Positions 35,940-52,475 of a stretch of 64,000 bases of DNA are shown one piece after another. The stretch is taken from NCBI RefSeq assembly GCF_009914755.1, contig NC_060943.1, one strand, 5' to 3'. A program made the position numbers and the translations under genes. Every line of letters starts with the position of its first letter. Within the stretch, counting starts at the first letter, position 1. Below the pieces are notes generated by a model. That model had not been told where the DNA came from, did not search any database, and saw only the letters and a program-made list of their open reading frames with translations. Source of the stretch: the human T2T-CHM13v2.0 reference genome, Homo sapiens.

Positions 35940-36256
35940 GGGAAACAAGATTCATGTTTTATTTCCACAGAGAAACTCAAAAGTAGGAAGCTCCTCCTTC
36001 CTGGAGAACTGTCACAGTGACTTCAGGTCACCAAAGGGAGGAGGTACAGAAAGATGCTGGTGTATGTGACGAGGCTGGTGGCCACTGAAGCACCACAGTG
36101 CAGTGGGAAGAAACAAGGAGAGACAAGCTGGGTCCCCAGCCTAGGAAACAGAGGTGTGGCAGCCGGGCCAGGGCTGGCACAGGCTGGGGGCCAAGGGGAG
36201 GAGCTCCCTGACGACCAGTGCTTTTCGGGGCCTCGGTGGTGGTTGCAAGAAATTGC
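35940..36256 (-). other. DMKN: DMKN terminal 3'UTR exon
   Basis: Pyrimidine tract and TAG acceptor at 36257-36259; AATAAA at 35958-35963. Confidence 0.85.
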
Positions 36257-37433
36257 CTAGAAGAAAGAAAATCAAATGGTAGCACGTGGCCACTCCTAAG
36301 CCTGCGGAAACGGGGCATCTTTTCACCCAGCGTCTGGGCACCCACCATTCTTTTGCTGTCCTACCTGTTCGCCTGTGGTGCCCCTCACTTTTGCTCCGCC
36401 TAAAACAGAGTTTGTGGTTCTGCCGAGCCAAGCTATCACCTCTCGCCCATGCAGCCTCGCTGCGTCCCACCTCTGAACCCTTCCACCAGGAGGCTCTTTT
36501 CTCCACAGTTCCCCTGTAACATCTCTATCCCGGTCCCTGTGCTCCATCTAGAACACCATCTTCTCAGAGCTGTGCCTATGTGGTCCCACCCTAAGGTGCT
36601 TTCCGAGGGTCCTAGGTCATTTTCTTTCTTCTTTCTCTCTTGCTTGCTTTCTTTCCCTCTTTCTCTCTCTCTCTCTTTCTCTCTTTCTTTCCAGACAGGG
36701 TCTCCCTCTGTTGCCCAGACTTGGAGTGCAATGGTGTGATCATAGCTCACTGCAGTTTTGAACTCCTGGGCTCAAGCGATCTTCCTGCCTCTGCCTTCCA
36801 AGTAGCTAGAACTACAGGCATGTGTCACCATGCCTGGCTAAGGTTTTTCATTTGTTTGTTTGTTTGTTTTGAGACAAGGTCTCACTGTGATTGCCCAGGC
36901 TGGAGTGCAGCGGTGCAATCGCAGTTCGCAGCAGCCTCAACCTCCCAAGCTCAGGTGATTCTCCCACCTCAGCCTCCAGAGTAGCTGGGATTACAATCAT
37001 GCACCACCTCACCTGGCTAATTTTTTGTATTTTTAGTAGACGGGGTTTTGCCATGTTTCCCAGGCTGGAATGGTTTGTTTTGTTTTGGTTTGTTTTGTTT
37101 TGTTCTTTTAGAGATGGGGTCTTGCTATATTGCCCAGTCTGGTCTCAAACTCCCAGACTCAAGTGATCCTCCCACCCCAGCCTCCCAAAGCACAGAGATT
37201 ACAGGCATGAGCCACTGCACCCAGCCCTAGATCACTTTATTATGGGTCTTTCTCCACACCCCACCATGAGGTCCCCTCTTCCTTATCACCTTTAGAGCAC
37301 GCACCCAGAGCATACCTGACTTCATGTCGCTGCCCACTGAGATCTGAGGATATACCAAGATCCTGGCCCTGCCCCGGGTGACTGTGCCTCCACTGCCAGG
37401 ATGTGGCCTGGGTCGGCTCACTCTGACACTCAC

Positions 37434-37481
37434 CTACCAAAACTTCACCCACTGCAGCAGGCCAGGTTGCACCCGGGAAGC
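37434..37481 (-). CDS. DMKN: DMKN last coding exon (48 nt, ends on the stop codon)
   Basis: cag|[18 protein letters not shown]|gtgagt. Confidence 0.95.
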   Translation of the reverse strand, partial: ASRVQPGLLQWVKFW

Positions 37482-52192: not shown

Positions 52193-52391
52193 CTCTGCCC
52201 AGCCCCCTCTCTCTCCAGAGTGTCTTCCTCCCACCAGGGTCTCCTCCTTGCCGCCCTTGCTCTGCGTCTCTGTGCCCTCCTCTGTCCTCCTCCTTCCGAC
52301 TCCCTGTCCTCCCTCCCTCTGGGTCTGCAGCCTTCTCTCTCCTGTCCTCAACTGCCTGGGCTTCTCAGAGTCCACCTCCCTGTCACTACTC

Positions 52392-52475
52392 CTTATACTC
52401 TAGGTTGGGAGAAGGTGACAGGGCTGGGCAACCTGAGGTCCCTCCCCGCAGTGACTCAGGGCCCAGCCACCAATA
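52392..52475 (-). promoter_or_regulatory. DMKN: DMKN main promoter
   Basis: TATAAG 52392-52397, AP-1 52452-52458, CCAAT near 52470. Confidence 0.7.

What the first reader, a model, noticed from the sequence alone, without database searches (positions are those of the whole stretch)
35940..52475. DMKN looks like two ancestral KRTDAP-like genes joined by read-through
Seen: unit 1 has a TATA/AP-1 promoter, a signal-peptide exon, module exons, a short terminal exon DQRSSRIP* and AATAAA (42038). Unit 2 has its own TATA/AP-1 promoter (40655-40698), its own signal-peptide exon (40541-40621), a module exon and AATAAA (35958). The two units share no exon. Two module exons (41548, 40854) lie between them and resemble a duplicate of the 44656/44435 pair. 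KRTDAP follows the same plan, and SBSN's 3' end matches it (module exon plus short tail exon SVANIMP*). Inference: the long beta form is a fixed read-through chimera made possible by uniform phase-0 introns, so the cluster holds four ancestral units.
Basis: inference. Interest (0 to 1): 0.7.

Follow-up and report, generated by a model that had tools for sequence, protein, structure and literature searches.

The report
Dermokine: old gene of duplicated exons
The skin gene dermokine has a known second start and a known early stop, and its long form is predicted to be made in platypus, echidna, opossum and placental mammals alike, so it is likely one old gene that grew by copying small exons shared with its two neighbours, although an even older merger of two genes is not excluded.

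Summary
Every coordinate is right. The alpha/beta/gamma plan (second promoter, internal poly(A)) is published. The evolutionary reading is only half supported.

For: gamma ends exactly like KRTDAP (its last module is the closest relative of KRTDAP's last module, then a short tail exon). All four promoters share an AP-1/TATA layout. All coding introns are phase 0. Beta splices like a conjoined transcript.

Against: full beta-type proteins are annotated in platypus, echidna, opossum and all placental groups. The two 'between' exons are as conserved as any exon and belong to neither unit. One ends 156 nt from the alpha promoter. No unit-2 exon matches a KRTDAP exon at protein level; its only module is a relative of DMKN's own first module. 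The alpha signal exon turned up only in boreoeutherians. No non-mammalian relative was found, so the founding event cannot be polarised here.

Best reading (0.5): a gamma-type gene was extended by 3' exon duplication and later gained an internal first exon. Ancient fusion of two paralogues: 0.35. By-product: SBSN, called an orphan in a 2021 review, shares module exons with DMKN and KRTDAP.

The parts
52392..52458 (-). beta/gamma promoter: AP-1 consensus TGAGTCA and TATA-like TATAAG
   Evidence: AP-1 label is a recalled consensus, binding not tested
51767..52192 (-). first coding exon: signal peptide plus a stretch resembling the suprabasin Gly/His/Ala repeat
   Evidence: (p<=0.01 in 7 of 7 placental sequences, not significant in 2 of 2 monotremes)
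44843..51507 (-). nine small phase-0 Gly/Ser-rich exons translated here
49088..49187 (-). delta first exon (third start, no signal peptide); Met in 23 primate records, Val in 14 other records
   Evidence: PMC3053396
44656..44703 (-). module M1 (type A, 48 nt)
44435..44482 (-). module M2 (type B, 48 nt), closest relative of KRTDAP's last module
42022..42165 (-). gamma terminal exon DQRSSRIP* with AATAAA at 42043-42038
   Evidence: opossum tail in P0204
41548..41604 (-). bridge module M3 (diverged type A, 57 nt), beta/delta only
40854..40901 (-). bridge module M4 (type B, 48 nt), beta/delta only; donor 156 nt above the alpha AP-1 site
40656..40698 (-). alpha promoter: TGAGTCA and CATAAAA
40541..40621 (-). 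alpha signal-peptide exon, phase 0
39251..39298 (-). exon shared by alpha and beta, with a conserved dibasic (KR) site
   Evidence: 95 of 111 records; cleavage after this Arg seen in mouse skin
37592..39137 (-). three further small phase-0 exons shared by alpha and beta (39137-39096 optional, 38747-38676, 37615-37592)
37434..37481 (-). module M5 (type A, 48 nt); stop TAG stands where M1 has its last codon AAG
35938..36256 (-). non-coding last exon of alpha/beta with AATAAA at 35963-35958
26044..29266 (-). KRTDAP: promoter, signal exon, spacer exon, modules K1-K3, tail exon, AATAAA 26066
62100..63660 (-). SBSN 3' exons: module S1 63491-63447, tail SVANIMP*, AATAAA 62117

Best explanation
DMKN is likely one old gene that grew from a gamma-type ancestor (signal exon, Gly/Ser exons, module A, module B, tail, poly(A)) by tandem duplication of its phase-0 3' exons, which likely left the old tail and poly(A) stranded inside as an alternative last exon, and it likely gained the alpha promoter and signal exon as an internal first exon, possibly copied from a KRTDAP-type 5' end. 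How it works today (shown by the sequence and published): transcription from 52.4 kb either ends at the gamma poly(A), or splices M2 to M3 and runs on to give beta. Transcription from 40.7 kb gives alpha, whose signal exon has no acceptor and is skipped in beta. Uniform phase 0 keeps every combination in frame. Inferred: selection has kept beta since the common ancestor of living mammals. Cleavage at the conserved KR site likely frees the same C-terminal peptide from beta and from alpha, which would fit the reported compensation by alpha in knockouts.
For: Beta architecture M1-M2-M3-M4-(alpha exons)-M5 in platypus P0109 and echidna P0115, opossum P0147 and 94 of 259 stored proteins. Human-platypus identity is 12/19 and 11/16 for the bridge exons, against 11/16 and 14/16 for M1 and M2, and 6/16, 6/24, 2/8, 9/15 for the exons shared with alpha. 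M4's donor is 156 nt from the alpha AP-1 site; gamma poly(A) to alpha TATA is 1,041 nt without the Alu, against 6,744 and 9,715 nt between the true genes. M5 pairs with M1 (z 4.6, exact register) and with none of K1-K3 or S1 (p 0.31-0.40). In a 378-pair exon comparison no pair of a unit-2 exon with a KRTDAP exon reached z 2.1 (best z-exon/K3, z 2.07). All 22 named alpha-signal proteins of 25 are boreoeutherian. The locus has a precedent for an internal start: delta, with Met only in primates.
Against: The alpha promoter has the same oriented AP-1/TATA layout as the three true family promoters, and a TATA-to-ATG distance like KRTDAP's (46 vs 52 nt). The alpha exon's human DNA scores 50 against KRTDAP exon 1, above all 29 unrelated signal sequences from either side (maxima 46 and 39.5). 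So its 5' end is probably a family copy, which a fusion explains simply. M5 follows low-complexity exons just as M1 does, as expected of a whole-gene duplicate. Missing alpha and gamma forms in monotremes may only reflect thin annotation (one platypus record). The bridge pair is not demonstrably a copy of M1/M2 (M4 nearest M2 in 16% of bootstraps, K3 in 57%). The non-placental proteins are database gene models, not transcripts seen here.
Confidence: 0.5

Rival explanations
1. One reading: two tandem paralogues (gamma-like and alpha-like) were joined by read-through before the monotreme-therian split. The bridge exons come from a partial duplicate or a third unit that lost its own tail.
For: Gamma ends like KRTDAP. 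Alpha has its own family-type promoter, signal exon and poly(A). Alpha/KRTDAP exon 1 DNA score lies above 29 of 29 controls. M5~M1 at an equivalent position. Beta skips the upstream last exon and the downstream first exon, the commonest conjoined-gene pattern (42% of cases, with novel in-between exons in 46%; PMC2953495).
Against: It needs extra events: a partial duplication, deletion of a tail to within 156 nt of the promoter, and loss of unit 2's B module. Signal-peptide protein score is at background (25.0; 6 of 29 and 10 of 29 controls equal or higher). 26 of 406 control-control DNA pairs also reach 50. No separate alpha-like or gamma-like gene was found in any outgroup. Terminal exons show no DNA similarity.
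Confidence: 0.35
2. Beta is the ancestral form outright. Both the gamma tail (therian) and the alpha exon (placental) were added later as new alternative ends.
For: Monotremes gave only beta. Gamma tails were seen in therians only (26 records). The tail shows no sequence similarity to the KRTDAP or SBSN tails.
Against: The tail sits right behind M2, the orthologous-looking partner of KRTDAP's last module (97% bootstrap), which is where the family plan puts a tail. An 8-residue tail is too short to show homology either way.
Confidence: 0.13
3. Beta is a recent or incidental read-through product of two still-independent genes.
For: Splice pattern only.
Against: Beta-only exons are conserved to monotremes. 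Beta is the main studied protein in human and mouse skin.
Confidence: 0.02

Closest known systems
Dermokine isoform families alpha/beta/gamma/delta (PMC3053396 and PMC13460826, citing Matsui 2004, Moffatt 2004, Toulza 2006, Naso 2007)
   Same: Identical locus: 25 exons, three starts, two termination sites; alpha from its own downstream promoter with its own secretion signal.
   Different: The passages read give no evolutionary reading, no exon-paralogy map and no monotreme data.
Pfam PF15200 KRTDAP
   Same: DMKN proteins carry this label in the protein database; human DMKN scores 23 bits, E 7e-05.
   Different: That is below the 27-bit cut-off. The family covers the type-B modules only; M1, M3 and M5 form a second, DMKN-specific type.
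Conjoined / read-through genes (PMC2953495)
   Same: Skips the upstream terminal exon and the downstream first exon, includes in-between exons, and keeps frame.
   Different: Both parents are not shown to be, or to have been, separate genes. The junction exons are conserved to monotremes and the long form is a main product.
Secreted-protein clusters built from small phase-0 exons, such as the SCPP/casein genes (recalled, not looked up)
   Same: Tandem cluster, signal exon, small symmetrical phase-0 exons, growth by exon duplication.
   Different: No sequence relationship tested or claimed. The ESM Atlas gave only a 0.76 lead to GLYCAM-1, below its reliable range.

Membership tests
Conjoined (read-through) gene | One transcript joins exons of an upstream and a downstream unit on the same strand | tested here: met
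   RefSeq table NM_033317.5
Conjoined (read-through) gene | Upstream last exon and downstream first exon are skipped | tested here: met
   beta omits 42165-42022 and 40621-40541; pattern
Conjoined (read-through) gene | Each unit has its own promoter and poly(A) site and is expressed alone | tested here: met
   motifs; separate expression is published; alpha-specific N-terminal peptide in mouse skin
Conjoined (read-through) gene | The two parents are, or were, distinct genes (separate in an outgroup) | tested here: inconclusive
   monotremes and opossum already have the joined form; no non-mammalian relative among 42 profile hits; outgroup genomes not available
KRTDAP-like gene, unit 1 (gamma) | Type-B module followed by a short coding tail exon and poly(A) | tested here: met
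   M2~K3 z 8.8, DNA z 7.7
KRTDAP-like gene, unit 1 (gamma) | First exon homologous to KRTDAP exon 1 | tested here: inconclusive
   placental: background (22.4; 17-18 of 29 controls higher). Monotreme: 34.5, above all 29 controls from the KRTDAP side, but 7 of 29 higher from the monotreme side
KRTDAP-like gene, unit 2 (alpha) | Contains a KRTDAP-type module exon | tested here: not met
   M5 vs K1, K2, K3: p 0.31, 0.40, 0.35
KRTDAP-like gene, unit 2 (alpha) | Short coding tail exon after the last module | tested here: not met
   stop inside M5, last exon non-coding
KRTDAP-like gene, unit 2 (alpha) | Signal exon homologous to KRTDAP exon 1 | tested here: inconclusive
   human DNA above 29 of 29 controls; multi-species protein at background
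Pfam PF15200 | Score at or above the 27-bit gathering cut-off | tested here: not met
   human beta 23 bits, gorilla gamma 14.4 bits
SBSN as paralogue of DMKN/KRTDAP | Homologous module exon in register | tested here: met
   S1~K1 z 4.5, S1~M4 z 3.4; DNA S1~M4 z 6.6; human SBSN only

The most novel reading that the evidence does not exclude
SBSN, gamma-DMKN, alpha-DMKN and KRTDAP are four copies of one ancestral keratinocyte secreted-peptide gene, and dermokine-beta is a read-through fusion fixed before living mammals diverged, with two orphaned module exons kept alive only by the fusion transcript.
Probability: 0.35. Interest if true: 0.55.

Novelty: new member of a known kind. Interest (0 to 1): 0.3.

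Why it matters
The locus is a mammal-only skin-barrier cluster whose origin is not described in the papers found. Treating the three genes as one family of shared 14-19-residue module exons gives a testable reason for mild single knockouts and points to the modules, and to the peptide freed at the KR site, as the likely functional units. It also questions the statement in a 2021 review that SBSN has no paralogue. If the fusion model holds, DMKN would be an unusually old, fully fixed conjoined gene. The isoform structure itself is old news.

Tried and rejected
1. A striking human DNA match between the 3' ends of the alpha exon and KRTDAP exon 1 (z 6.7 against shuffles) was not accepted as proof. 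It needs two frameshifts, rests partly on primate-specific residues, drops to about the top 6% against real signal sequences and vanishes at protein level. That test has low power: the likely paralogues placental DMKN, KRTDAP and SBSN also score at background.
2. Homology of the terminal exons and 3' UTRs: none (6 pairs, best p 0.045 on a pyrimidine run). The gamma-tail/z-exon pair (z 6.9) is a short match scoring only 15, treated as chance.
3. Non-coding paralogy in 25-70 kb: self-BLAST found only the SBSN internal repeat, one local repeat and module exons K3~M4 and K3~M2 at weak E-values.
4. Non-mammalian relatives: profile search of 1.84 billion representatives gave 42 hits, 28 already held and 14 new unnamed ones that read as DMKN or KRTDAP. 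ESM Atlas gave only KRTDAP and dermokine clusters plus sub-0.8 leads. PDB gave 0.
5. Further family copies elsewhere in the human genome: none; PF15200 and an alpha protein rang only at this locus above noise. A DNA search with the alpha promoter found only itself.
6. Eight automatic gene models that fuse DMKN to KRTDAP were not taken as evidence of real read-through.
7. Matsui 2004 and Moffatt 2004 are not held, so whether they noted the module similarity is unknown. Earlier scan findings were not available.

Full report
Observation. I read 35,800-53,000 on the minus strand and translated each exon by coordinates. All 20 DMKN coding exons translated, 6 of 6 KRTDAP exons and 3 of 3 SBSN exons in the window are phase 0 at both ends. 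The oriented pattern TGAGTCA-N29..59-ATAAR marks exactly the three promoters in the window (3 found, 0.44 expected) and the SBSN promoter in the adjoining stretch L003. The opposite orientation gave one unrelated hit (0.52 expected). The pattern was fitted after seeing the sites.

What is already published. I saw passages only, not whole texts. PMC3053396: 25 exons, three starts, two termination sites, isoform families alpha, beta, gamma and delta. PMC13460826: alpha starts 11,739 nt downstream from a distinct promoter and may compensate for loss of beta and gamma. bioRxiv 10.1101/2025.05.23.655724: mouse skin N-terminomics shows an alpha-only N-terminal peptide and a peptide starting right after the Arg of the KR site. 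PMC7831088: SBSN has no defined paralogue, no sauropsid orthologue, and is called a likely mammal-specific orphan. PMC2394760 adds nothing on evolution. Eight searches listed no paper proposing a fusion origin or an exon-level history; for most I saw listings only, and searches listed only part of their hits. The founding papers (Matsui 2004, Moffatt 2004) are not held, and Toulza 2006 and Naso 2007 were seen only as citations; any of them may mention the shared motif. No supplements were read.

Distribution of the forms. A search with exon 1 gave 70 of 3,891 candidates, all named ones placental. A search with the C-terminal 130 residues gave 112 of 242, including platypus P0109 and echidna P0115. 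Both run signal peptide, low-complexity region, M1, M2, M3, M4, KR exon and M5. A profile search among short proteins gave 144 of 315, of which 120 were listed and 24 were not seen. It included opossum fragments of both kinds: beta-type P0147 and gamma-type P0204. Of 259 stored proteins, 94 have all five modules, 26 end in the gamma tail (primates, musk deer, carnivores, squirrel, opossum; no monotreme), and 25 carry the alpha signal exon (regular-expression tally). The 22 named ones among these 25 are all boreoeutherian; three are unnamed, and one of them (P0257) could not be placed beyond having placental nearest matches. A profile of DMKN and KRTDAP modules against 1.84 billion representatives gave 42 hits, none foreign in appearance. 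So beta dates at least to the ancestor of living mammals (about 180 million years, recalled), gamma at least to therians, and alpha at least to boreoeutherians. These are gene models, some projected from human, so presence is better evidence than absence.

The bridge exons. They can be used only by transcripts that pass the gamma poly(A) and start above the alpha promoter. Human-platypus identity is 12/19 (M3) and 11/16 (M4), against 11/16 and 14/16 for M1 and M2, and 6/16, 6/24, 2/8 and 9/15 for the exons shared with alpha. The long form is therefore under old and strong selection, which excludes incidental read-through. M4's donor lies 156 nt above the alpha AP-1 site, leaving no room for a tail. 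The two 'units' are about 1 kb apart without the Alu, against 6.7 and 9.7 kb between the real genes.

Exon relationships. I compared multi-species exon profiles with column shuffles (36 pairs; 378 pairs) and column bootstraps. Type B: M2~K3 (z 8.8; nearest in 97%), M2~M4 (6.7), M4~K3 (6.6), M4~K2 (4.1), K2~K3 (3.5). Type A: M1~M5 (4.6), M1~M3 (2.7), M3~M5 (1.6). SBSN S1 joins K1 (4.5) and M4 (3.4; DNA z 6.6). Of 36 best alignments, 31 fall in the exon-end register. Three points follow. Second, the bridge pair has the A-B order but is no closer to M1/M2 than to KRTDAP, so it is an old duplicate. Third, unit 2's only module is an A-type relative of DMKN's own M1 (nearest in 56% of bootstraps; not significant at DNA level), with a stop where M1 has its last codon, and it matches nothing in KRTDAP or SBSN. 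Placental DMKN exon 1 also resembles the SBSN repeat (p<=0.01 in 7 of 7; not in 2 of 2 monotremes; the shuffle does not control for helical periodicity). Unit 1 is thus SBSN-like at the front and KRTDAP-like at the back.

The alpha first exon is the crux. I collected 29 unrelated human signal-coding sequences from loci of three Pfam families (29 of 76 loci passed the automatic filter). At DNA level alpha vs KRTDAP scores 50, above all 29 controls from either side, but 26 of 406 control pairs also reach 50 and six pairs were examined. At protein level with 15 and 18 species it is background. Promoter layout, a TATA-to-ATG distance of 46 vs 52 nt and the MK-x-P start lean towards a copy of a family 5' end. 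A copied 5' end does not by itself mean a once-separate gene: a KRTDAP-type promoter and first exon landing in an intron of an existing long gene explains the 156-nt spacing, the lack of KRTDAP-type exons downstream and the narrower distribution. The locus also has a start of another kind, delta, whose first codon is Met in 23 primate records and Val in 14 others.

Mechanism and verdict. Shown: alternative promoter and alternative last exon in an all-phase-0 gene. Beta skips the upstream tail and the downstream first exon, as 42% of conjoined transcripts do (PMC2953495, passages), so it works like a conjoined gene. Inferred: history. I put 0.5 on extension of a gamma-type gene by 3' exon duplication with later gain of the alpha exon, 0.35 on a pre-mammalian fusion of two paralogues, 0.13 on beta-first with both ends added later, and 0.02 on recent read-through. 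Membership in 'conjoined genes' stays open because separate parents were not found. 'Unit 2 is KRTDAP-like' failed two tests and was inconclusive on a third. Interest 0.3: the architecture is known; the exon map and the link of SBSN to its neighbours are modest additions.

Noticed in passing
window 63447-63491 and 51767-52192; L003 (SBSN exon 1): SBSN shares a module exon with DMKN and KRTDAP, and placental DMKN exon 1 resembles the SBSN repeat, although PMC7831088 says SBSN has no defined paralogue.
   Followed up: partly
window 42173-42500: A sense-oriented Alu sits inside the polypyrimidine tract of the gamma terminal exon, 8 nt above the acceptor, with a near-perfect target-site duplication. 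It may have changed the beta/gamma ratio in primates.
   Followed up: no
window 39251-39298 (orthologues): The 16 of 111 records that lack the dibasic site after M4 are all cetacean, most because the exon is absent from the model, and no named cetacean alpha isoform was listed: possible loss of this exon, or of alpha, in whales.
   Followed up: partly
window 49088-49187: The delta first exon starts with Met only in primate records (23) and with Val in the other 14; it lies in a moderately CpG-rich stretch (o/e up to 0.64).
   Followed up: partly
stored proteins P0031, P0051, P0052, P0070, P0119, P0122, P0124, P0145: Automatic annotation fuses DMKN and KRTDAP exons in frame in 8 records, likely an artefact of uniform phase 0; real DMKN-KRTDAP read-through was not checked.
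   Followed up: no
window 38870-38892: A TATAAAA followed by CACGTG lies about 140 nt above the 38747 acceptor, inside a RefSeq enhancer (38835-39336); function unknown.
   Followed up: no
P0109, P0115 N-termini vs window 29076-29162: Monotreme DMKN ends its signal region with LGGPE, as human KRTDAP exon 1 does, and scores above all 29 controls from the KRTDAP side: a hint that DMKN exon 1 and KRTDAP exon 1 are paralogous.
   Followed up: partly
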